From the NCBI RefSeq assembly GCF_028641065.1, contig NC_073400.1, forward strand, positions 19,592,001-19,656,000: a stretch of 64,000 nucleotides of DNA. The letters are read 5' to 3'. Source of the DNA: Leucoraja erinacea (lineage: Eukaryota). Positions 1,764-57,418 of the stretch are shown here, piece by piece. A model generated the notes under the pieces. That model ran no database searches. It was not told the origin of the DNA and was given only the letters and a program-made list of their open reading frames with translations. Numbering within the stretch: position 1 is the first letter of the stretch; each line of letters starts with the position of its first letter. The translations under genes were made by a program, and so were the position numbers.

Positions 1764-2130
1764 CTGTGGGACAATAAAAAGGCAGGAGTTGTCAAACAGT
1801 TTGCTGACGAGGCACTCAGAACACAGGGGTAAGTGTCATTTAACCCGGGGGAAATCGGAGAAGGGGATGGGTGTCCTTGGACTGTGGGAGGGGATTCAAT
1901 GGATGGGGACAGTCTGCAAGAACTGAGGGAAGAGAATCAATGGGTTGGGGAGATGGTCATAAGGGAGCAAATTCAATTAGTGGACTATGGGGGATATAGT
2001 AGGTGGGAAGTCTGAAAGGGGAGAGCACTTGAGCATTGGGCAGATTAAGAGGGTGGATAAATCCATGGGTTCTGGGACTGTCAGCTGTTGATAATGCTCT
2101 GGAACCTTTACCTTTAATCCCACTCAGTCA

Positions 2131-2204
2131 CTACAGGGAGCATTTCAGCAGCATCAGTCCGAGAAGCAGTGGAAGCGGTGATCGAACTGTCCGCGATGAG
2201 GAGG
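2131..2204 (-). CDS. Gene C terminal coding exon: GPI-anchor signal
   Basis: Acceptor attctttccttttcag, phase 1. Encodes ASSSRTVRSPLPLLLGLMLLKCSL*: small-residue omega region, spacer and hydrophobic tail, with no cytoplasmic part. A donor AAG|GTAAAG follows at 2112. Confidence 0.8.
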
Positions 2205-3463
2205 CTGAAAAGGAAAGAATGGTCTTTAGTAGTGATCAAAGCAGTCATGGGAGGGTGGGAAAAAAGTTATGGCATAGGAGGAGGAGCGGTTTGGGCAGGT
2301 TATGCCGAGGAAGGATGGGTGGGGGGTTTGTCCAGATGGAGGAAGGAGTGGTGGGTTGGTGAGGTCTGCACCGCGGAGGTGACAGTTGAGGGGGTGAGGA
2401 TTCTGCGCCTAAGGTGAAGCGGGTGGATGGGTGGTTAAGTCCACCTTGAAGAGGGAGGAGTGTCCGTGGGGGGGGGGGGGGGGGGGGGGGGGGGGAGTGA
2501 GGTCTGTGGAGTTGTGGGAGGGGGAAGTCTTTGGCTTAGGCATGGGGGAACAGTTACAGGGTGTGGGGAAAAGTGGGTGAGGGAGAGAGGTGTGGAAGAT
2601 GTGGTGGCGGATGTGGGAGGTATGGGTGGGGGGGGTGGGCAAGGGGTGAGGAAGGGGCGTTTTGGGGGAGTGGCGTGTGGGGGAGGGAAGGCTGTGGGGG
2701 GGGTAGGGATGCGTCTTGTCGGAGGTGCGATTGGGTGACGGAGGTGCAAGGCGTGGGGGAGGCGTGGGGGAGGTGAGGGTGAGTGGGAGATGGACGAATG
2801 GTGGGGAGAGGCGAGTGGTGGAGGGGCGAGATGTGACTGGGTGGGCAAGGTACAAGGCTTGTTAGAGGGGTAGATGTGTGGGTGAGGTGCTGGGCATGGG
2901 CATGGGCGACTTGTTGCTGAGGCAGGGTGGGGAAGTCCATGGCAGCGGAGTGTCTGGTATGGACGGCGGCTCCAAATTTGGGGGAAAGGTTGGGTCAGAG
3001 TGGGGATGGCTGGATCAGACACTGAAGGACAATAGGACAGATACTCTGAGGGACTGAGGAAGCTAGAGTGTGATGGAGAATGATGTAGGTGCCAAATAGA
3101 AGTAGCAATGTGTAATGAAACAGAGGGACATGTAAGAGTTGTTTGGAATGATGGAATGTGGAGTTGGATAGAGGTAGGGAGATCAGGAGTGGGACGAAGG
3201 GAGCGATGTAGAGAGGGACAAAGGTAATGATGTGGAACAGGAGGGGTAAGAAAGGCAGAGAGCTGCAGTAAATGGAGGGTTCATAGTAGGTTGAAGAGAG
3301 GAGGACAGAGAGACATTTGACTTGTGTGGAGTGGAGGTGATCAGCGAGGTCGTCCAGTGGTGAGGATGGCAAGGTGGAGCTTGATAGCAGGAGGATATAG
3401 AGGCAGTAGCTTGGGGCTTTAGGGGCGGACTGGAATTGAGAGCGGGAATGCGCCCTGACCCAC

Positions 3464-3793
3464 CAAAAACATATAGCTGCATGTTCATGTAGATGCCTTT
3501 CCCTTTGCTAAACTTGGCTTGTAGGCTGTACTAGCCAGCGTCAGCTGCACGGACTGACTCCAGCATCAATGTGCCATTGTCGTACATATGCGCCCGATGC
3601 TTGTAGATACCATGGCATTCCAGCTCGTCAGGCAGGTTCCAGGTACAGATGACAGAGGGCAGGGATTTCGGCAACTTGCGGAAAGTCCATTGAAGGAAGG
3701 TGGGCGCCTTTTCCAGATGGACGGACAGGGTGGTATTGACGTTCACCCGACTACATCTGTAGTCATTGACCAATGTAGCTGCAGAGACTTGGC
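3464..3793 (-). pseudogene. Gene C duplicated Ig V exon (V2) with a single in-frame TAG
   Basis: Intact acceptor (ctcccag) and donor (G|GTGGGT), 330 bp. Aligns without gaps to V1 at roughly half identity. TAG at 3531-3533 replaces the TGG (Trp) of DxGWY. Confidence 0.85.
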
Positions 3794-3849
3794 CTGGGAG
3801 CAAGGGGGCGAAGTGAGCAAGGGGTGATAGTGTGGCATAGCAGTCTACC

Positions 3850-4520
3850 TATGTCCCCTACTGTCAACCCTATGCCCTGACAAACTCATGACCCAGCTAT
3901 CAGTGAGCCCAAAGCCTGACCCTAGACAGTGATAGAATGTCTCCTCATCGCAGGCAGTGACCCCAGCTTTTCACCCCAATCTCAGACTATGACTGGATCA
4001 TTACCCCAATCCCTCATAGCAACATTGGACCATTGATCCTGACTCTGGAACATGACTGTCACCCTTCACCCCAACACTCGACTATGACCCTGATTCCTTA
4101 CCTTGGCCAGTAACTGCATGCCAGAACCTTAAACCTGGCCATAGGCAGTGGCTACAACCTTCCTTTTATCTTCATCCCAAGAACCTGTCAACTCGTAGCA
4201 GACCAACAATGACCATGACCTCTTACTTTGAACTGGACAGTGATGTGCTCCCTTGCTGAATCCAGACAGTAGTATGACCCATCACACTGACTTCGGAGTG
4301 TTGTGACCCCCTCATCCCAACTCTGGATAGTGACACAAACCTTTCACCCTAATTCCAGACAGTTACATTCCTTACCCCAGCCCTGGATAGTGACATTATG
4401 CCTAATCCTGATGCAGGACAGCTACAGAACTCACCCTGATCGAAGTGATAGGACCCCTCGACCCCCAACCCTGGGTTGAGACAAGGTCGATCCCTCGCCC
4501 TAGTCATTACTTTGATCCAG
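3850..4520. repeat. Degenerate ~30-bp tandem repeat (..accctggACAGTGAcac..)
   Basis: Recurrent gacagtga/gatagtga units; paralogous to 5285-5915. Confidence 0.6.
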
Positions 4521-4936
4521 GACAGCAAGACAGAGGGGGGGGATTCAGCTGAGATTTGTGGATAAAGGATGTGAAAGTGGGACAGGGGGAAAGGATGTGG
4601 TGCACAACACAAGCAGAGTGAGGTGAGAGGGATGGCAGACATTGAAGGAAGTGCAAGGAGGAGAGGGGTAGTGATCAGGAGGATGAAGTTTGGATTAGGA
4701 TTAACTGACAAAATGTTGAGCAGTATATAGGGATTTTGAGCAGGATGGAGGGAAGGAATATGAGGGATGAGTAAGAGTGGGACAGGAGGAGGTTGACTGG
4801 CACAGTAAGTTGCCAGAGAGGCAGTGAGGTGGCACGGAAATAGAGAAGGGACCTTATGGCAGGAGACGGCAGAGAAGCAGTGGTTGGTGGGGATGGATGG
4901 GTTGAATGGGATGGAGGGAGATGCAGCCTCACCCAC

Positions 4937-5266
4937 CGAAAACATATAGCTGCACTCTGTGGTGGACGCCTTGTTTGTGGCTGAACATGGCATGGAGGTA
5001 GTACCAGCCGGAGTCAGCAGCACGGATTGAGCCCAGCAACAGTGTGCCGTTGATGTAGATGTGCGCCCGGTTCGTGTAGCTACCCCGGCACTCCCGCTGG
5101 TCGGGTAGGTACCAGATGCAGATGATAGAAGGTGTAGAGCGAGGCGATTTACGGAAGCTCCACTCCAGGAATGTGGGCTCCTGCTTCAGACTGACAGGAA
5201 AGGTGACTTTGGAGTCCAACCGAGCACATGCATAGTCCGTCGCAAGTGTGATGCCGTGGACCAGCC
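4937..5266 (-). CDS. Gene C exon 2: Ig V domain (V1), CD2/CD48-like
   Basis: Acceptor atcctcacgcccag, donor G|GTGGGT, 330 bp. Motifs KVTFPV, LEWSF, RAHIYINGTLLLGSIRAADSGWY and VQLYVF. Confidence 0.9.
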
Positions 5267-5284
5267 CTGGGCGTGAGGATGACA

Positions 5285-5915
5285 TTGTTAGTGGCACGAA
5301 CCTTCACTCCAAACTCAAGACAGTGACATGACACTTTATCCCAAACCCAGAGAGTGACACGACCGCTCATCTGAACCCTGGACAGTGATATTGTCCTAAC
5401 ACTGACCCAGACAGTGAACAACCTTAATCCTGTGTGACACGACTTTTCACTCTGACCCCAGACAGTTATATGATCACCCCCTCCCACCACATTGCGACCC
5501 TAAAGTGTGACGTGATGTCTCGCCCAAACCCTGCGTGGCGACACAACATCCCATTGTGACCCTAGGCACCTTAACCTCTCTTATAGACCTGGACAGTGAC
5601 ACCGCAACTCCCCCCTTCCCCCAAATCTGGACAGTGACATAACCCTCCAACATTAATTTGAAGAGTGATATAACCTTTTACAGTTAGGCGTCTTTTCACC
5701 CTAACCCAAAACAGCAACAGAACTCTCACCCTGATCTCATCAAACTTCACGACCCTTCACACTCAGACAATTAAATGACACCTTATCTGACTCCAACAGT
5801 GATACTTTACACCAACCTTGGCCTGGAAACAATGCATTATCCCAAACCAGACAGTGATATGGCATCTCACCCTGAATCAGAACAATCATATATTCCTTCA
5901 CCTGACTCAGACAAT
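5285..5915. repeat. Degenerate ~30-bp tandem repeat (..accctggACAGTGAcac..)
   Basis: More than ten gacagtga-containing units in the intron upstream of V1. Confidence 0.65.
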
Positions 5916-5916
5916 A

Positions 5917-6273
5917 ACATAGAAACATAGAAATTAGGTGCAGGAGTAGGCCATTCGGCCCTTCGAGCCTGCACCGCCATTCAATATGATCATGGCTGAT
6001 CATCCAACTCAGTATCCCGTACCTGCCTTCTCTCCATACCCTCTCATCCATAGCCACAAGGGCCACATCTAACTCCCTCTTAAATATAGCCAATGAACTG
6101 GCCTCAATTACCCTCTGTGGCAGAGAGTTCCAGAGATTCACCACTCTCTGTGTGAAAAAAGTTCTTCTCATCTCGGTTTTAAAGGATTTCCCCCTTATCC
6201 TTAAGCTGTGACCCCTTGTCCTGGACTTCCCCAACATCAGGAACAATCTTCCTGCATCTAGCCTGTCCAACCC
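5917..6273 (-). mobile_element. CR1 LINE 3' fragment
   Basis: (CATAGAAA)n tail and the end of ORF2 (SRTRGHSLRI..FFTQRVVNLWNSLP). Confidence 0.9.
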
Positions 6274-6539
6274 CAACATGGCCCCTCTTGCTGACACTAC
6301 ACAGTAGCATAGCCGCTAACCCTAATCCTGGATTGTGATACGAACCCTCACCCTAATCCCAGCCCGTAACATGATTCCTCACCCTGAATCCCGACCCTGT
6401 CAAGACTCCTCATCCCAACGCCATAAACGACATGTCTCTTCAAACCACTTCCCTCATACAACCCCTATCTACGATGAACTCCCTTGCACTTACCCCAATC
6501 CCAATCTCTTTATTCATTGTCTGTCATCTGTGAACATTC

Positions 6540-8380
6540 TATGACCCCACCTCTCCACTAAGCGCACCCCTGATCCATCCCATCTGACCATGACCCTTTC
6601 ACACCACTGACCCACATTTAGGTCTACCTACAGAACCCCATTCCTGACCCCTCCACTGATCTCTTCAACTCCCATCACTAATTTCTCATCTGACCCCCCC
6701 TCCTTCCCATGACTCTTCCTCTCCACTGACCTTAAATCACCCCTTCCTTTCCTTTCGGCTGACCCTACCACTTTTCCCTACCCGACCTCCCCACCACTGA
6801 AGCCATCCCCCAGACTACTCCACAACACTGACCGTGATTAGTGATGCCCTCTCCCTTCTCACCCTCACTCTTAACTCCTCCACTTTACCCAGATTCCCTA
6901 ACTCTCCCTGATTTCCTCCTACATCAACCCCCATCACTGACCCTTTCCACCTCTCTCCTTTCCCCCTGACCCCCACAATGACCCTTCCCCTCCACTGACT
7001 CTCTCCCCAGACCATTCCCATCCACTGATACCATCTTATATGATCACACCCCCCCCACCCTCATCGCTGACCCTCCCCCATTTCCTCCTCCCTTGATCCC
7101 CATATCTGATCCCTCTATTCCACTGACACCCACTGACCTCCGCACTCAAAAAACACCTCATCAAACCCCTCACCCACCCTCCCCCTGGCCCTCAATCCTG
7201 ACCTTTTTGCTAACTCCCATCTCTGACCCACCTCCCCTCCACTGATGTCCATTCCTGACCTCTCCTCTCCATTGACTCCACCACTGAACTCTCTTTTCCA
7301 CTGGCCCTCTTTTCCACCCTACCCAAGTCTCTCCTCTCAACTGGTTTCCATCCCTGACCATAATCTACCGAACCCCATTCCTGGCTCCACCACTGGCCCA
7401 ATCCTTGACCGTTCCCATGAGCACCACCCTAACCCTTCCACTCCTGACCTTCAGCCTTGACCCCTCATCTCCACTGAGCTCCATCTATATGACCATCTCC
7501 ATTGATCCCCTCCCATGTCCCACCCTTGACCTTCCCCACTCATCCCTATCCTTGACCTTCCTCTCCACTATCCCATGTATGACCCCCTACTCCACTGACC
7601 ATGACCGTTGACTCTTCCACTGAACACAATGTCAACCCCTCCCCTCCTCTGAACCCCATCCCTGTATCAACTCCTTCTCTGATTACCACTTGCTGATCCC
7701 CACACCTGATCCCTCCACACTGACCCTCCATCGACTCACTTCTTTGACACCTCTCTTCCACTGACACCCACCACTGGCTCACTCCCCACATCTGCTCACT
7801 TTATTCCACTGACCCCACGTTTGATCCCTTCCCTATATTTATCCCCACCCGCTGACACCACTGACCCTTCCCCACTGATGCCACCGTTGATCCCTCAACA
7901 CTGAACCTTCCCGCCCTCCCCTTCCACTGATATCCATCACTAACCCTGCCCAATGACCCCCACTACATCTGATCCACTTCTACTGACTGCATCCTTGACC
8001 CCTTCCCATTGTCCACCACCCGACTCTTCTGCTCCCTTACCCATACCCTTCAGTTCCCCATCCGATATTCTTACCGGTCTTCACTCATTGCCCCCCTCCC
8101 TCCCATCCCAGTCCCATTCCACCGACCCATACTGCTGGCCTTTCCCTGCTTTTCTGGACTTTCATTAACTCACAATCATGAACCCTTTAAATGACCCCTA
8201 CCCGTGACTCTCCAGACCCCGGTCCTCCCTATCCTCACTCCTTCCCTCCCAACGACTCCCACCTCTACACCTCCAGATGCCTACTCATGACCTTTCGCTA
8301 ACCCCCTACCCACTGACCCCCACCCCTCCTCACTCTCCACATCTCCAACCCTTGACTCCTTTGCTCCTCCCCACTCCCGG
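6540..8380. repeat. C-rich low-complexity degenerate repeat (ccactgaccc units)
   Basis: Repeated ccactgacc motifs and strong C/T strand skew. Confidence 0.6.
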
Positions 8381-8443
8381 GCTTCACTTGGCCCCACGGT
8401 AGTCACTCGCCGTGCACCATGCCCGCTCCACCTTACACCTTAC

Positions 8444-8492
8444 CGGCGCACAACGCCATGAGAACACAGAGGGCGGGGAAAGGGGCGGCCAT
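8444..8492 (-). CDS. Gene C exon 1: signal peptide MAAPFPALCVLMALCA
   Basis: GCGATGG Kozak context and donor CCG|GTAAGG (phase 1), within a CpG island. Confidence 0.87.
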
Positions 8493-8494
8493 CG

Positions 8495-8680
8495 CGCGGC
8501 GCCAACTGACAGCCCCGATGCCCCCGCGCCCCCGCGCCCACTCCCGCCTCCATCAACCAATGGGAAGCGCCCGCTCGGTCGGGCCAACGCCCTCCGGGGA
8601 TCCGCCAATCAGAGCCCGCTTTGGATCCGCTCGTGCCCACGGTTTAAACCGCTGCTTCAACTGTCGACGCTCGAGGGTGG
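8495..8680 (-). promoter_or_regulatory. CpG-island promoter of gene C with CCAAT and GC boxes
   Basis: CpG-dense from 8380 to 8710. AACCAATGGG, GCCAATCAGAG and CCCGCC motifs lie just upstream of the ATG. Confidence 0.7.
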
Positions 8681-12166: not shown

Positions 12167-13784
12167 CAGTGGCTTGCAAAAGTATTCATACCCCTTGAAC
12201 TTTTCCACATTTTGTCTTGTTACAACCACAAACGTAAATGTATTTTATTGGGATTTTATGTGACAGACCAACACAAAGTGGCGCATAATTGTGAAGTGGA
12301 AGGAAAATGATACATGGTTTTCAAATTTTTTACAAATAAAAAACTGAAAAGTGTGGCGTGCAAAAGTATTCAGCCCCCCTGAGTCAATACTTTGTAGAAC
12401 CACCTTTCGCTGCAATTACAGCTGCAAGTCTTTTGGGGTATGTCTCTACCAGCTTTGCACATCTAGAGACTGAAATTTTTGCCCATTCTTCTTTGCAAAA
12501 TAGCTCAAGCTCAGTCAGATTGGATGGAGAGCGTCTGTGAACAGCAATTTTCAAGTCTTGCCAGAGATTCTCAATTGGATTTAGGTCTGGACTTTGACTG
12601 GGCCATTCTAACACATGAATATGCTTTGATCTAAACCATTCCATTGTAGCTCTGGCTGTAGGTTTGGGGTCGTTGTCCTGCTGGAAGGTGAACCTCCGCC
12701 CCAGTCTCAAGTCTTTTGCAGACTCTAACAGGTTTTCTTCCAAGATTGCCCTGTATTTGGCTCCATCCATCTTCCCATCAACTCTGACCAGCTTCCCTGT
12801 CCCTGCTGAAGAAAAGCATCCCCACAGCATGATGCTGCCGCCACCATGTTCCACAGTGGGGATGGTGTGTTCAGGGTGATGTGCTGTGTTAGCTTTCTGC
12901 CACACATAGCGTTTTGCATTCAGGCCGAAAATTTCAATTTTGGTCTCATCTGACCAGAGCACCTTCCTCCACACGTTTGCTGTGTCGCCCACATTGCTTG
13001 TGGCAAACTGCAAACAGGACTTCTTATGGCTTTTTTTCAACAATGGCTTTCTTCTTGCCACTCTTCCATAAAGGCCCGATTTGTGGAGTGCACGACTAAT
13101 AGTTGTCCTGTGGACAGATTCTCCCACCTGAGCTGTGGATCTCTGCAGCTCCTCCAGAGTTACCATGGGCCTCTTGGCTACTTCTCTGATCAATGCTCTC
13201 CTTTCCTTGCCTGTCAGTTTAGGTGGACGGCCATGTCTTGGTAGGTTTGCAGTTGTACCATACTATTTCCATTTTCAGATGATGGATTGAACAGTGCTCC
13301 GTGAGATGTTCAAAGCTTGGGATATTTTTTTTATAACCTAACCCTGCTTTAAACTTCTCCACAACTTTATCCCTGACCTGTCTGGTGTGTTCCTTGGGCT
13401 TCATGATGCTGTTTGTTCAATAATGTTCTCTAACAAACCTCTGAGGCCTTCACAGAACAGCTGTATTTATACTGAGATTAGATTACACACAAGTGGACTC
13501 TATTTACTGATTAGGTGACTTCTGAAGGCAATTGGTTGCACTGGATTTTATTTAGGGGTATCAGAGTAAAGGGGGCTGAATACTTTTGCATGCCACACTT
13601 TTCAGTTTTTTATTTGTAAACAAAATTTGAAAACCATGTATCATTTTCCTTCCACTTCACAATTATGCGCCACTTTGTGTTGGTCTATCACATAAAATCT
13701 CAATAAAATACATTTACGTTTGGGGTTGTAATGTGACAAAATGTGAAAAAGTTCAAGGGGTATGAATACTTTTGCAAGCCACTG
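12167..13784 (-). mobile_element. Tc1 (DD34E) transposon, Passport-like, full length but disrupted
   Basis: TA TSD and ~210-bp IR/DR-type TIRs (CAGTGGCTTGCAAAAGTATTCA). Transposase 13404->12384 begins MKPKEHTRQVRDKVVEK and has WSDETK / QQDNDPK-34-E motifs. It carries a +1 in an A-run and an in-frame TGA. Confidence 0.95.
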
Positions 13785-42820: not shown

Positions 42821-44255
42821 CATCTTCAATATTCTGCTAAACCTCCTCCACATCCTTCCTGTACAGTGGCTTGCAAAAGTATTCACACCCCTTGAACTTT
42901 TCCACATTTTGTCACGTTACAACCACAAACGTAAATGTATTTTATAGGGATTTTATGTGATAGACCAACACAAAGTGGTGCATAATTGTGAAGTGGAAGG
43001 AAAATGATACATGGTTTTCAAATTTTTTTCCAAATAAAAAACTGAAAAGTGTGGGGTGCAAAAGTATTCAGCCCCCCTGAGTCAATACTTTGTAGAACCA
43101 CCTTTCGCTGCAATTACAGCTGCAAGTCTTTTGGGGTATGTCTCTACCAGCTTTGCACATCTAGAGACTGAAATTTTTGCCCATTCTTCTTTGCGAAATA
43201 GCTCAAGCTCAGTCAGATTGGATGGAGAGCGTCTGTGAACAGAAATTTTCAAGTCTTGCCAGAGATTCTCAATTGGATTTAGGTCTGGACTTTGACTGGG
43301 CCAATCTAACACATGAATATGCTTTGATCTAAACCATTCCATTGTAGCTCTGGCTGTATGTTTAGGGTCGTTGTCCTGCTGGAAGGTGAACCTCCACCCC
43401 AGTCTCAAGTCTTTTGCAGACTCTAACAGGTTTTCTTCCAAGATGCCCTGTATTTGGCTCCATCCATCTTCCCATCAACTCTGACCAGCTTCCCTGCCCC
43501 TGCTGAAGAAAAGCATCCCCACAGCATGATGCTGCCACCACCATGTTTCACAGTGAGGATGGTGTGTTCAGGGTGATGTGCAGTGTTAGTTTTCTGCCAC
43601 ACATAGCGTTTTGCATTTAGGCCAAGAACTTCAATTTTGGTTTCATCTGACCAGAGCACCTTCCTCCACATGTTTGCTGTGTCCCCCACATGGCTTGTGG
43701 CAAACTGAAAACGGGACTTCTTATGGCTTTTTTTCAACAATGGCTTTCTTCTTGCCACTCTTCCATAAAGGCCCGATTTGTGGAGTGCACGACTAATAGT
43801 TGTCCTGTGGACAGATTCTCCCACCTGAACTGTGGATCTCTGCAGCTCCTCCAGAGTTACCATGGGCCTCTTGGCTGCTTCTCTGATCAATGCTCTCCTT
43901 TCCCGGCCTGTCAGTTTAGGTGGACAGCCATGTCTTGGTAGGTTTGCAGTTGTGCCATACTCTTTCCATTTTCAGATGATGGATTGAACAGTGCTCCGTG
44001 AGATGTTCAAAGCTTGGGATATTTTTTTATAACCTAACCGTACTTTAAACTTCTCCACAACTATCCCTGACCTGTCTGGTGTGTTCCTTGGGCTTCATGA
44101 TGCTGTTTGTTCACTAATGTTCTCTAACAAACCTCTGAGGCCTTCACAGAACAGCTGTATTTATACTGAGATTAGATTACACACAAGTGGACTCTATTTA
44201 CTAATTAGGTGACTTCTGAAGGCAATTGGTTGCACTGGATTTTATTTAAGGGTAT

Positions 44256-47200
44256 AGAAACATAGAAACATAGAAATTCAGGTGCAGGAGTAGGCCATTC
44301 GACCCTTCGAGCCTGCACCGCCATTCAATATGATCATGGCTGATCATCCAACTCAGTATCCCGTACCTGCCTTCTCTCCATACCCCCTGATCCCCTTAGC
44401 CACAAGGGCCCCACATCTAACTCCCTCTTAAATATAGACAATGAACTGGCCTCAACTACCCTCTGTGGCAGAGAGTTCCAGAGATTCGCCACTCTCTGTG
44501 TGAAAAAAGTTCTTCTCATCTCGGTTTTAATGGATTTCCCCCTTATCCTTAAGCTATGACCCCTTGTCCTGGACTTCCCTAACATCGGGAACAATCTTCC
44601 TGCATCTAGCCTGTCCAACCCCTTAAGAATTTTGTAAGTTTCTATAAGATCCCCTCTCAATCTTCTAAATTCTAGAGAGTATAAACCAAGTCTATCCAGT
44701 CTTTCTTCATAAGACAGTCCTGACATCCCAGGAATCAGTCTGGTGAACCGTCTCTGCACTCCCTCTATGGCAATAATGTCCTTCCTCAGATTTGGAGACC
44801 AAAACTGTATGCAATACTCCAGGTGTGGTCTCACCAAGACCCTGTACAACTGCAGTAGAACCTCCCTGCTCCTATACTCAAATCCTTTTGCAATGAAAGC
44901 TAACATACCATTCGCTTTCTTTACTGCCTGCTGCACCTGCATGCCTACCTTCAATGACTGGTGTACCAGGTCTCGCTGCATCTCCCCCTTTCCCAATCGG
45001 CCACCATTTAGATAATAGTCTGCTTTCCCGTTTTTTTGCCACCAAAATGGATAACCTCACATTTATCCACATTATACTGCATCTGCCAAACATTTGCCCA
45101 CTCACCCAGCCTATCCAAGTCACCTTGCAGTCTCCTAGCATCCTCCTCACAGCTAACACTGCCCCCCTCTTAGTGTCATCCGCAAACTTGGAGATATTGC
45201 CTTCAATTCCCTCATCCAGATCATTAATATATATTGTAAATAGCTGGGGTCCCAGCACTGAGCCTTGTGGTACCCCACTAGTCACTGCCTGCCATTGTGA
45301 AAAGGACCCGTTTACTCCTACTCTTTGCTTCATGTTTGCCAGCCAGTTCTCTATCCACATCAATACTGAACCCCCAATGCCTTGTGCTTTAAGTTTGTAT
45401 ACTAATCTCTTATGTGGGACCTTGTCGAAAGCCTTCTGGAAGTCCAAATACACCACATCCACTGGTTCTCCCCTATCCACGCTACTAGTTACATCCTCAA
45501 AAAATTCTATAAGATTCGTCAGACATGATTTACCTTTCGTAAATCCATGCTGACTTTGTCCAATGATTTCACCACTTTCCAAATGTGCTGCTATCCCATC
45601 TTTAATAACTGACTCTAGCAGTTTCCCCACTACCGATGTTAGACTAACTGGTCTGTAATTCCCCCCTTTTCTCTCTCTCCTCCCTTCTTAAAAAGTGGGG
45701 TTACGTTTGCTACCCGCCAATCTTCAGGAACTACTCTCCAGAATCTAAAGAGTTTTGAAAGATTATTACTAATGATCCACTATTTCTGGAGCTACTTCCT
45801 TAAGTACTCTGGGATGCAGCCTATCTGGCCCTGGGGATTTATCGGCCTTTAATCCATTCAATTTTACCCAACACCACTTCCCAGCTAACCTGGATTTCAC
45901 TCAGTTCCTTCATCTCATTTCATCCCCGGTCCCCTGCTATTTCCGGCAGATTATTAATGTCTTCCTTAGTGAAGACAGAACCAAAGTAGTTATTCAATTG
46001 GTCTGCCATGTCCTTGTTCCCCATGATCAACTCCCTGTTTCTGACTGCAAGGGACCTACATTTGTTTTAACTAATCTCTTTCTTTGCACATATCTATAAA
46101 AAACTTTGCAGTCAGTTTTTATGTTCCCTGCCAGCTTTCTATCATAATCTATTTTTCATTTCCTAATTAATCCCTTTGTCCTCCTCTGCTAGTCTTTGAA
46201 TTTCTCCCAGTCCTCTGTTATGCTGCTTTTTCTGGCTAATTTGCACGCATCATCCTTCGCTTTGATACTATCCCTGATTTCCCTTGTTATCCATGGATGT
46301 TCAATGTACCTTCCCTGATTTATTTCTTTTGCCAAAAATGGGATGAACAATTTTTGTAGTTCATCCATGCAGTCTTTAAATGTTCTCCATTGTATATCCA
46401 CCGTCAACCCTTTTAGAATTAATTGCCAGTCAATCTTGGCCAATTCACGTCTCATACCCTCAAAGTTACCTTTCTTTAAGTTCAGAACCATTGTTTCTGA
46501 ATTAACAATGTCACTCTCCATCCTAATGAAGAACTCAACCATATTATGGTCACTCTTGCCCAAGGGGGCACGTACAACAAGATTGCTAACTAACCCTTCC
46601 TCATTACTCAATACCCAGTCTAAAATAGCCTGCTCTCTCGTTGGTTCCTCTACATGTTGATTTAGATAACTATCCCGCATACATTCCAAGAAATCCTCTT
46701 CCTCAGCACCCCTGCCAATTTGATTCACCCAATCTATATGTAGATTGAAGTCACCCATTATAACCGTTTTGCCTTTGTCGCACGCATTTCTAATTTCCTG
46801 TTTGATACCATCTCCAACTTCACTACTACTGTTAGGTGGCCTGTACACAACACCCACCAGCGTTTTTCTGCCCCTTAGTGTTTTGCAGCTCTACCCATAC
46901 CGATTCCACATCCTCCAAACTAATGTCCTTCCTTTCCATTGCATTAATCCCCTCTCTAATCAGTAACGCTACCCCACCTCCTTTTCCTTTCTGTCTATCC
47001 CTCCTGAATATTGAATATCCCTGGATGTTCAGCTCCCAACCTTGGTCACCCTGGAGCCATGTCTCCGTGATCCCAACTATATCATAGTCATTAATAGCTA
47101 TCTGCACATTCAACTCATCCACCTTATTACGAATGCTCCTTGCATTGAGACACAAAGCCTTCAGGCTTGTTTTTACAACACTCTTACCCCTTATACAATT

Positions 47201-54699: not shown

Positions 54700-57418
54700 G
54701 CGTTACTGATTAGAGAGGGGATTAATGCAATGGAAAGGAAGGACATTAGTTTGGAGGATGTGGAATCGGTATGGGTAGAGCTGCACAACACTAAGGGGCA
54801 GAAAACGCTGGTGGGTGTTGTGTACAGGCCACCTAACAGTAGTAGTGAAGTTGGAGATGGTATCAAACAGGAAATTAGAAATGCGTGCGACAAAGGCAAA
54901 ACAGTTATAATGGGTGACGTCAATCTACATATAGATTGGGTGAATCAAATTGGCAGGGGTGCTGAGGAAGAGGATTTCTTGGAATGTATGCGGGATAGTT
55001 ATCTAAATCAACATGTAGAGGAACCAACGAGAGAGCAGGCTATTTTAGACTGGGTATTGAGTAATGAGGAAGGGTTAGTTAGCAATCTTGTTGTACGTGC
55101 CCCCTTGGGCAAGAGTGACCATAATATGGTTGAGTTCTTCATTAGGATGGAGAGTGACATTGTTAATTCAGAAACAATGGTTCTGAACTTAAAGAAAGGT
55201 AACTTTGAGGGCATGAGACGTGAATTGGCCAAGATTGACTGGCAATTAATTCTAAAAGGGTTGACGGTGGATATGCAATGGAAGACATTTAAAGACTGCA
55301 TGGATGAACTACAAAAATTGTTCATCCCAGTTTGGCAAAAGAATAAATCAGGGAAGGTAGTACATCCATGGATAACAAGGGAAATCAGGGATAGTATCAA
55401 AGCGAAGGATGATGCGTACAAATTAGCCAGAAAAAGCAGCATACCGGAGGACTGGGAGAAATTCAAAGACCAGCAGAGGAGGACAAAGGGCTTAATTAGG
55501 AAAGGAAAAATAGATTATGAAAGAAAACTGGCAGGGAACATAAAAAACTGACTGCAAAAGTTTTTATAGATATGTGAAAAGAAAGAGATTAGTTAAAACA
55601 AATGTAGGTCCCTTGCAGTCAGAAACAGGTGAGTTGATCATGGGGAACAAGGATATGGCGGACCAATTGAATAACTACTTTGGTTCCGTCTTCACTAAGG
55701 AAGACATAAATAATTTACCAGAAATAGCAGGGGACCGCGGGTCAAAGGAGTTGGAGGAATTGAGTGAAATCCAGGTTAGCCGGGAAGTGGTGTTAGGTAA
55801 ATTGAATGGATTAAAGGCCGATAAATCCCCAGGGCCAGATAGGCTGCATCCCAGAGTACTTAAGGAAGTAGCTCCAGAAATAGTGGATGTATTAGTAATA
55901 ATCTTTCAAAACTCTTTAGATTCTGGAGTAGTTCCTGAAGATTGGCGGGTAGCAAACGTAACCCCACTTTTTAAGAAGGGAGGGAGAGAGAAAATGGGGA
56001 ATTACAGACCAGTTAGTCTAACATCGGTAGTGGGGAAACTGCTAGAGTCAGTTATTAAAGATGGGATAGCAGCACATTTGGAAAGTGGTGAAATCATTGG
56101 ACAAAGTCAGCATGGATTTACGAAAGGTAAATCATGTCTGACGAATCTTATAGAATTTTTCGAGGATGTAACTAGTAGCGTGGATAGGGGAGAACCAGTG
56201 GATGTGGTGTATTTGGACTTCCAGAAGGCTTTCAACAAGGTCCCACATAAGAGATTAGTATACAAACTTAAAGCACAAGGCATTGGGGGTTCAGTATTGA
56301 TGTGGATAGAGAACTGGCTGGCAAACAGGAAGCAAAGAGTAGGAGTAAACGGGTCCTTTTCACAATGGCAGGCAGTGACTAGTGGGGTACCGCAAGGCTC
56401 AGTGCTGGGACCCCAGCTATTTACAATATATATTAATGATCTGGATGAGGGAATTGAAGGCAATATCTCCAAGTTTGCGGATGACACTAAGCTGGGGGGC
56501 AGTGTTAGCTGTGAGGAGGATGCTAGGAGACTGCAAGGTGACTTGGATAGGCTGGGTGAGTGGGCAAATGTTTGGCAGATGCAGTATAATGTGGATAAAT
56601 GTGAGGTTATCCATTTTGGTGGCAAAAAACGGGAAAGCAGACTATTATCTAAATGGTGGCCGATTGGGAAAGGGGGAGATGCAGCGAGACCTGGGTGTCA
56701 TGGTACACCAGTCATTGAAGGTAGGCATGCAGGTGCAGCAGGCAGTAAAGAAAGCGAATGGTATGTTAGCTTTCATTGCAAAAGGATTTGAGTATAGGAG
56801 CAGAGAGGTTCTACTGCAGTTGTACAGGGTCTTGGTGAGACCACACCTGGAGTATTGCGTACAGTTTTGGTCTCCAAATCTGAGGAAGGACATTATTGCC
56901 ATAGAGGGAGTGCAGAGACGGTTCACCAGACTGATTCCTGGGATGTCAGGACTGTCTTATGAAGAAAGACTGGATAGACTTGGTTTATACTCTCTAGAAT
57001 TTAGAAGATTGAGAGGGGATCTTATAGAAACTTACAAAATTCTTAAGGGGTTGGACAGGCTAGATGCAGGAAGATTGTTCCCGATGTTAGGGAAGTCCAG
57101 GACAAGGGGTCACAGCTTAAGGATAAAGGGGAAATCCTTTAAAACCGAGATGAGAAGAACTTTTTTCACACAGAGAGTGGTGAATCTCTGGAACTCTCTG
57201 CCACAGAGGGTAGTTGAGGCCACTTCATTGGCTATATTTAAGAGGGAGTTAGATGCGGCCCTTGTGGCTAAGGGGATCAGGGGGTATGGAGAGAAGGCAG
57301 GTACGGGATACTGAGTTGGATGATCAGCCATGATCATATTGAATGGCGGTGCAGGCTCGAAGGGCCGAATGGCCTACTCCTGCACCTAATTTCTATGTTT
57401 CTATGTTTCTATGTTTCT
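54700..57418 (+). mobile_element. 5'-truncated young CR1 LINE (ORF2)
   Basis: ORFs 54691-55551, 55574-56791 and 56382-57314 are broken only at A-runs. Ends in a (TTTCTATG)n tail and is near-identical to 44256-46970. Confidence 0.95.

What the first reader, a model, noticed from the sequence alone, without database searches (positions are those of the whole stretch)
3464..5266. Tandem V exons in gene C: alternative or tandem use, with a lone TAG at the conserved Trp
Seen: V1 and V2 align without gaps (about 59/110 identical by hand count) and keep both splice sites and three Cys. Each begins with a leader-tail-like segment (GLVHG / GQVSA), and each is preceded by the same ~30-bp repeat block, so they are an old segmental duplicate. 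V2 has a single lesion, TGG>TAG. Inference: both were under selection until recently, either as mutually exclusive V exons sharing one leader and GPI exon or as V-V-GPI. The TAG may be a null allele, a base error, a switch to a secreted/NMD isoform or (speculatively) an A-to-I recoding site, UAG>UIG.
Basis: partly seen in the sequence, partly recalled or inferred. Interest (0 to 1): 0.7.

Follow-up and report, generated by a model that had tools for sequence, protein, structure and literature searches.

The report
Skipped duplicate exon, recent Tyr stop
This small antibody-fold surface-protein gene has two old copies of its only domain exon; a related species' spliced transcript uses the first and skips the second, and the second's stop codon replaced a tyrosine recently, so it is likely ordinary decay of a spare exon, not RNA editing.

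Summary
The two V exons are real: 330 nt each, ungapped, 59/110 residues identical, splice sites intact, one leader. Three readings change. (1) The lesion is TAC>TAG (Tyr), not TGG>TAG: three related organisms, one only 1% divergent, all carry TAC. A-to-I recoding loses its motive. (2) A second sample of the same species carries TAG, so it is not an assembly error; it may still be a segregating allele. (3) The one spliced record found (organism F) joins leader, V1 and a hydrophobic last exon at 2204 directly, skipping V2. The product is a 150-residue single-V, predicted GPI protein, like a 152-residue zebra shark protein and the next gene downstream. V2 was constrained for most of its history (dN/dS 0.52, no indels at dS 0.68), but among close relatives it cannot be told from neutral. 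No RNA read of the window's own species fell on the locus, so V2 use is untested there. The gene lies in a SLAM/CD2-type cluster near COPA and nicastrin but lacks the C2 domain. Verdict: a tandem exon duplicate, likely a former alternative first domain, now a null in this species. Modest interest.

The parts
8444..8492 (-). Leader exon, coding part (16 codons + 1 nt, GT donor), in a CpG-rich stretch
   Evidence: (30 CpG in 260 nt); joined to V1 in X20 record 3
5313..5891 (.). Degenerate ~30-nt repeat block upstream of V1 (further copies 6294-6387)
   Evidence: families D6, D7, D10
4937..5266 (-). V1 exon, 330 nt, phase 1-1, IgV domain without the B-F disulfide; the exon used in the one spliced record
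4064..4395 (.). Degenerate ~30-nt repeat block upstream of V2
   Evidence: families D7, D10
3941..3958 (-). 18-nt intron stretch complementary (89%) to the start of the last exon (2186-2203); possible loop-out of V2, chance not excluded
   Evidence: (I17)
3464..3793 (-). V2 exon, 330 nt, phase 1-1, splice sites intact; skipped in the one spliced record
3531..3533 (-). TAG at V2 codon 87, derived from TAC (Tyr) by a change at 3531; 67 nt before the exon end
2131..2204 (-). Last exon, coding part: small residues, spacer, hydrophobic tail, stop; predicted GPI signal. The 3' UTR follows (540 nt of X20 record 3 lie on this side of V1)
   Evidence: (loose end equals window 2174-2203)

Best explanation
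Gene C makes a leader-V1-last exon transcript (shown in related organism F, likely also in this species) for a 150-residue, predicted GPI-anchored single-IgV protein, while V2 is an old tandem copy that is skipped and likely dispensable, which would explain why a recent TAC>TAG change in it was tolerated. Shown: exon structure, the V1-to-2204 join in F, TAC in three relatives, TAG in a second sample of this species. Inferred: V2 served for most of its history as an alternative first domain behind the same leader (it keeps a signal-peptidase-like V-x-A start, and family members are single-V), then fell out of use. Any V2-containing mRNA in this species would stop 67 nt before the last junction and likely be removed by nonsense-mediated decay; if translated, it would lack the F and G strands of V2. 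The V1 product is untouched.
For:: X20 record 3 (977 nt, depth 30.4) lies on V1 only; its loose ends are the leader and window 2174-2203; no X20 record lay on V2, while two intron records at depth 2-3 did; 3 of 3 other organisms have TAC; B differs at only 19 of 1851 bases; X7 (same species label, other sample and study) matches 3440-3561 with 0 differences; zebra shark XP_048381266.2 (152 aa) and neighbouring gene D are leader + one V + hydrophobic tail; dN/dS 0.52 (0.33-0.84), dS 0.68; neutral survival without stop, indel or splice hit over half that distance is at most 0.0002. V2 between B and D shows 6 non-synonymous and 3 synonymous changes, not different from neutral (p 0.39); V2 lost 6 of the 22 other columns conserved in V1, V3 and shark.
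Against: The skip is seen in one record of one run of another species, labelled 'RNA? (probably DNA)'; contigs drop minor forms, so V2 inclusion elsewhere is not excluded. V2 has no frameshift in B, D or F and no listed stop in B or D; its acceptor has the stronger pyrimidine tract (17 vs 12 of 20). Intact survival across these species is unlikely-ish under neutrality (about 0.05-0.14), though F's substitutions were mostly not shown. V1 itself evolves at dN/dS about 1 or above (12 of 15 changed codons non-synonymous), so a neutral-looking ratio does not show that V2 is dead. The faster rate of V2 is not significant (4 vs 12, p 0.08).
Confidence: 0.6

Rival explanations
1. V2 is still a live alternative exon in relatives, used instead of V1 in some tissue or stage, so that the whole ectodomain is swapped; only this species (or some of its alleles) has lost it.
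For: Open frame and no indel in B, D, F; intact splice sites; same length and phase; leader-cleavage-like start; long-term constraint; weak candidate pairing 3941-3958 with the last exon (-32.5 kcal/mol, below 25 of 25 controls).
Against: No V2 record in X20. No steric, frame or splice-class barrier to joint inclusion (1143-nt intron, 330 = 0 mod 3, all GT-AG). No docking/selector-type repeats among the 25 longest inverted pairs. The pairing was picked after the fact from 90 pairs.
Confidence: 0.2
2. V2 is the relic of a separate single-V gene: a whole-gene duplication followed by a deletion of the first gene's last exon and the second gene's leader. V2 was selected as its own gene and has been silent since the deletion.
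For: Family members are separate single-V genes; explains long constraint without alternative splicing; the skip in F.
Against: No leader remnant, CpG island or last-exon remnant between V1 and V2. The same V1-V2 intron is present in B, D, F, so the deletion would predate them and V2 would have survived intact since (about 0.05-0.14).
Confidence: 0.08
3. The gene normally makes V1-V2-GPI (260 residues), and the TAG switches it to a secreted V1 or a decayed message.
For: The tandem join is in frame; two-N-domain genes exist (rodent Ceacam11-14, PMC10440875 passages).
Against: The spliced record skips V2 although organism F has TAC. No two-V homologue among 3 hits of 59-308 residues or in the longer search; both searches are weak.
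Confidence: 0.06
4. The TAG is an assembly or base-calling error.
Against: X7, another sample and study, has the same letters over 3440-3561 at depth 9.
Confidence: 0.03
5. The UAG is an A-to-I recoding site that restores Trp.
For: Paralogues and shark homologues have Trp here, so UIG would give a tolerated residue.
Against: The orthologous codon is TAC in 3 of 3 relatives, so there was no Trp to restore. The best duplex around the codon (-36.1 kcal/mol) lies within the range of 20 controls (-25.6 to -41.2).
Confidence: 0.02

Closest known systems
CD48 (SLAMF2) and CD58, CD2/SLAM family
   Same: IgV without the B-F Cys pair; V1 model matches CD58 (Z 15.7, rmsd 1.4, 92 aligned) and CD48 (Z 14.9, rmsd 1.4, 92 aligned); GPI-type end as in CD48 (PMC4718992 passages); V-C2 neighbours, one over the Receptor_2B4 cut-off; COPA-like and nicastrin 0.55-0.63 Mb away.
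   Different: No IgC2 domain; a Cys pair at 49/59 and a lone Cys13; JAML and nectin-1 score as high (Z 16.0), so the fold does not decide the family.
Uncharacterised shark proteins XP_048381266.2 (Stegostoma tigrinum LOC125449502), GCC19253.1 (Chiloscyllium punctatum)
   Same: Leader + one V + short hydrophobic tail, 152 aa (XP_048381266.2); same Cys49/Cys59 pair; closest sequence relatives found.
   Different: About 27-35% identity; no second V in the annotated proteins; no Cys13; no function on record.
CEACAM N domains; rodent Ceacam11-14 and Psg tandem N exons
   Same: Best sequence matches in the PDB (CEACAM15, E 0.0065); Atlas look-alikes of the shark homologue are CEACAM-named clusters (0.96); duplicated V-type exons behind one leader (PMC10440875 passages).
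   Different: There both N exons are in the product; here V2 is skipped. The LIPE marker lies on another contig. Similarity is weak.
Tandem exon duplications and mutually exclusive exons (PMC9013439, abstract)
   Same: Two homologous exons of equal length and phase in tandem.
   Different: Use of the second exon is not shown; no exclusion mechanism found; the copy is broken in this species.

Membership tests
SLAMF/CD2 receptors | Lies in the SLAM cluster | tested here: met
   V-C2 genes on both sides; COPA-like at C24:20.20 Mb and nicastrin at C24:20.23 Mb. Their linkage to SLAMF in mammals is recalled; PMC6894729 passages list them with Slamf genes in one mouse chromosome 1 QTL.
SLAMF/CD2 receptors | Membrane-distal IgV domain of CD2 type | tested here: inconclusive
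   V fold, pLDDT 90; CD58/CD48 tied with JAML and nectin-1; Pfam V-set 24.9 bits, under the cut-off of 26.
SLAMF/CD2 receptors | Membrane-proximal IgC2 domain (PMC4718992 passages) | tested here: not met
   V1 joins the last exon directly; no C2 exon between 4937 and 2204.
SLAMF/CD2 receptors | Transmembrane + ITSM tail, or GPI anchor as in CD48 | tested here: inconclusive
   Last exon has small residues, a spacer and a hydrophobic tail with no cytoplasmic part; no GPI predictor was available.
CEACAM/PSG | N domain similarity | tested here: inconclusive
   Best PDB sequence hits but E 0.0065 or weaker; tree unresolved.
CEACAM/PSG | Linkage to the CEA locus (LIPE as marker, recalled) | tested here: inconclusive
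   HSL_N matches only contig C772; that contig's place relative to C24 is unknown.
Mutually exclusive exons | Homologous tandem exons of equal length and phase | tested here: met
Mutually exclusive exons | Each exon spliced in on its own, never both | tested here: inconclusive
   V1 alone seen once; V2 not seen; 0 reads laid from 3 RNA runs of this species.
Mutually exclusive exons | Exclusion by steric clash, frame or splice-site class (recalled list) | tested here: not met
   1143-nt intron, both exons 0 mod 3, all GT-AG.
Mutually exclusive exons | Competing RNA pairings (docking/selector) | tested here: inconclusive
   None among the 25 longest of 90 inverted pairs; one weak pairing, 3941-3958 with the last exon.
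A-to-I stop-to-Trp recoding | Editing restores the residue of the orthologues | tested here: not met
   Orthologous codon is TAC in B, D, F.
A-to-I stop-to-Trp recoding | Double-stranded RNA around the site | tested here: not met
   -36.1 kcal/mol, within 20 controls; only the gene's own pre-mRNA 2100-8500 was scanned.
A-to-I stop-to-Trp recoding | A>G mismatch in RNA against DNA | tested here: inconclusive
   No RNA read or record covered V2.

The most novel reading that the evidence does not exclude
Cartilaginous fishes have an undescribed subfamily of single-V, GPI-anchored receptors at the SLAM locus, and in this gene one leader picks either of two 53%-identical V exons, swapping the entire ligand-binding ectodomain by splicing; an intron-to-last-exon RNA pairing loops V2 out by default, and this species is losing the second specificity right now through a segregating null allele.
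Probability: 0.2. Interest if true: 0.6.

Novelty: new variant of a known kind. Interest (0 to 1): 0.28.

Why it matters
As it stands, it is a clean small case of a duplicated domain exon dying, and it removes a tempting RNA-editing claim. The side result may be more useful: single-V proteins with a GPI-type end and a Cys49/Cys59 pair sit in the SLAM cluster here and in sharks, and I found no paper on them. If V2 proves to be spliced in relatives, it would be a vertebrate immune-type receptor whose whole ectodomain is chosen by splicing, with a natural null to test it.

Tried and rejected
RNA of the window's species: 3 raw-read runs (X22, X23, X24; 1-5% of each read) gave 0 reads on 3380-5400; this is no test of expression. 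No indexed RNA holder was listed. Absence of V2 cover in X20 is by itself no evidence; only the join across it counts. My first last-exon candidate (1281-1178) was dropped when the spliced record joined 2204; it may be chance or a minor end. A 1763 acceptor gives only 9 codons. Own leader for V2: the scan found none; the single ATG-donor candidate in the intron is not hydrophobic. Further copies in the genome: only V1, V2, V3 (lower bound). Protein searches: V1 found only itself and nothing longer; the profile found 3 proteins. The Atlas could not read V1; the shark homologue was used. The tree groups V1 with V2 (87/96) but has no starred branch. dN/dS for V2 in F could not be computed (123 rows not shown). 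Earlier scan findings: none. Papers: no description of this gene or subfamily; the library lacks most subscription papers, and no supplements were read.

Full report
Observation. On the minus strand lie a leader exon (8492-8444), V1 (5266-4937), V2 (3793-3464) and a last exon starting at 2204. V1 and V2 are both 330 nt and phase 1-1, align without gaps, share 58 of 109 residues (59 of 110 with the junction Gly) and 223 of 330 bases, and keep Cys 13, 49 and 59. V2 has one TAG, codon 87, at 3533-3531, 67 nt before its donor. The flanks align only loosely (z 6-8 against plain shuffles) and share a degenerate ~30-nt unit. The duplication is old: dS 0.68, dN/dS 0.52 (bootstrap 0.33-0.84).

The stop came from Tyr. 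Laying contigs of four DNA-type runs on 3440-5290 showed G for C at 3531 in organisms B, D and F, 3 of the 3 other organisms laid. On the coding strand this is TAC. B differs from the window at only 19 of 1851 bases, all listed, so the change is very recent. The position is the variable residue of D-x-G-x-Y: Trp in V1, V3 and a shark homologue, Leu in gene B. V2's lineage had already replaced Trp by Tyr. Editing therefore has nothing to restore, and the best duplex around the codon is no stronger than 20 controls. X7, same species label but another sample and study, matches 3440-3561 with no difference at depth 9, so TAG is real. One caution: that contig ends exactly 30 letters past 3531, one short of the tool's bridging rule, and the next X7 contig ends exactly 30 letters from 3808, where X7 differs from the window. 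With 31-letter words, such ends can mark heterozygous sites (inference, untested), so TAG may still segregate with TAC.

How it is spliced. Three raw RNA runs of the window's species gave 0 reads (1-5% of each run read), which tests nothing. X20 (organism F, labelled 'RNA? (probably DNA)') gave 3 records: two intron pieces at depth 2-3 and one 977-nt record at depth 30.4. That record lies on V1 only; one loose end is the leader exon and the other equals window 2174-2203. Introns are removed at AG and GT, so it is a spliced message or a copy of one. It skips V2, although F's DNA has TAC and no net indel there. The exon at 2204 encodes small residues, a spacer and a hydrophobic tail, a predicted GPI signal, and resembles the last exon of the next gene downstream. 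Leader-V1-last exon gives 150 residues; leader-V2-last exon stops at 104; the tandem form stops at 214. By the 50-55 nt rule (recalled) both V2 forms would be decay targets.

Was V2 functional? A simulation with an indel rate read roughly gives at most 0.0002 for surviving 0.34 substitutions per site without a stop, indel or splice hit, under 0.01 at 0.17, and 0.05-0.14 at 0.10-0.07. So V2 was constrained for most of its history, but its survival among A, B, D and F does not prove present use. Between B and D it shows 6 non-synonymous and 3 synonymous changes (p 0.39 against neutral); D's list is taken as complete up to 4261 from the row order, with 36 of 72 differences shown. V2 differs from D at 10 of 330 bases, the adjacent intron at 16 of 468. 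V1 is no better: 12 of 15 codons changed against F are non-synonymous (16 changes from X20, 1 from X15). V2 has drifted further from the outgroups than V1 (12 vs 4 with V3, p 0.08; 8 vs 4 with shark; 4 vs 4 with gene B). No leader lies between V1 and V2. V2 keeps a V-x-A start that would suit cleavage after the leader, which favours past use as a first domain (inference).

What the gene is. V1 folds as an IgV domain (pLDDT 90.2) matching JAML, nectin-1, CD58 and CD48 about equally (Z 16.0-14.9). By sequence the best solved matches are CEACAM N domains, weakly. The closest relatives are uncharacterised shark proteins, so the window is likely from a cartilaginous fish; zebra shark XP_048381266.2 is leader + one V + hydrophobic tail, 152 residues. 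Gene D, just outside the window, has the same layout with its own leader. The cluster also holds V-C2 genes, one over the Receptor_2B4 cut-off, and COPA-like and nicastrin exons lie 0.55-0.63 Mb away on the same contig, while LIPE lies elsewhere. It likely works like CD48 or CD58, as a GPI-anchored ligand without its own signalling tail (inference). It fails the SLAMF consensus of IgV plus IgC2 (PMC4718992, passages), so I call it SLAM-locus, CD48-like, not a SLAMF member.

Comparison with print. Duplicated V-type exons behind one leader are known from rodent Ceacam11-14 and Psg genes (PMC10440875, passages). Tandem exon duplications are common and often, not always, tied to exclusive choice (PMC9013439, abstract). 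PMC4079198 (passages) reports a CEA-like EST in a cartilaginous fish; I did not compare it. PMC10751288 (one passage) mentions slamf in shark. PMC6894729 (passages) lists Ncstn and Copa with Slamf genes in one mouse QTL. Other papers were seen as listings only; no supplements were read.

Verdict. Best reading (0.6): V1 is the working exon, V2 a skipped former alternative, and TAG an ordinary recent null. A live alternative exon in relatives remains possible (0.2). Editing and error are close to excluded. Interest 0.28.

Noticed in passing
L004 9197-9158, 5840-5511, 113-37 (just beyond the window start): Gene D: own leader, one 330-nt V exon (39 of 109 residues shared with V1) and a GPI-like last exon; a single-V paralogue.
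   Followed up: partly
L005 about 932-600 and L006 about 8660-8400: Gene E: a V exon followed by a C2 exon, classical CD2/SLAM layout.
   Followed up: no
window 25562-25233, 26327-26285, 20226: Gene B's V exon shares the Cys49/Cys59 pair with V1, V2, V3 and sharks; a leader candidate and a C2 exon flank it; no transmembrane exon was found downstream by my scan.
   Followed up: partly
window 35565-35236 and 30371-30090: Gene A's V exon passes the Receptor_2B4 cut-off (30.1 vs 21 bits); a downstream frame holds a tyrosine motif of inhibitory type (label recalled).
   Followed up: no
V1 and V2 codon 13: A lone Cys, absent from V3 and sharks, could form disulfide-linked dimers.
   Followed up: no
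V1 codons 93-100 (about 4987-4967): Six of 12 non-synonymous codons against organism F cluster here, near the F-G loop; possible selection on a binding face.
   Followed up: no
window 5267-5272: F's spliced record has 6 extra in-frame letters between leader and V1, five of them matching the window's acceptor end; F likely uses an acceptor 6 nt upstream.
   Followed up: no
window 4937 and 4933: V1 has a second GT donor 4 nt downstream, which would shift the frame; F's record uses the first.
   Followed up: partly
window 3941-3958 and 2186-2203: Complementary 18-mers that would bracket V2; stronger than 25 of 25 controls but chosen after the fact, and the intron arm resembles the local repeat unit.
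   Followed up: partly
window 1281-1178: A second acceptor with a 34-codon frame and hydrophobic end; not the one joined in F; possible alternative last exon.
   Followed up: no
X7 contig ends at 3561 and 3778: Both lie exactly 30 letters from a variant site (3531, 3808); possible heterozygosity in that sample.
   Followed up: no
window 44411-46866 and 54802-57258; 12384-13262 and 43082-43971: An inverted pair of young reverse-transcriptase-like elements (98%) and two transposase-like copies (95-97%); class labels recalled.
   Followed up: no
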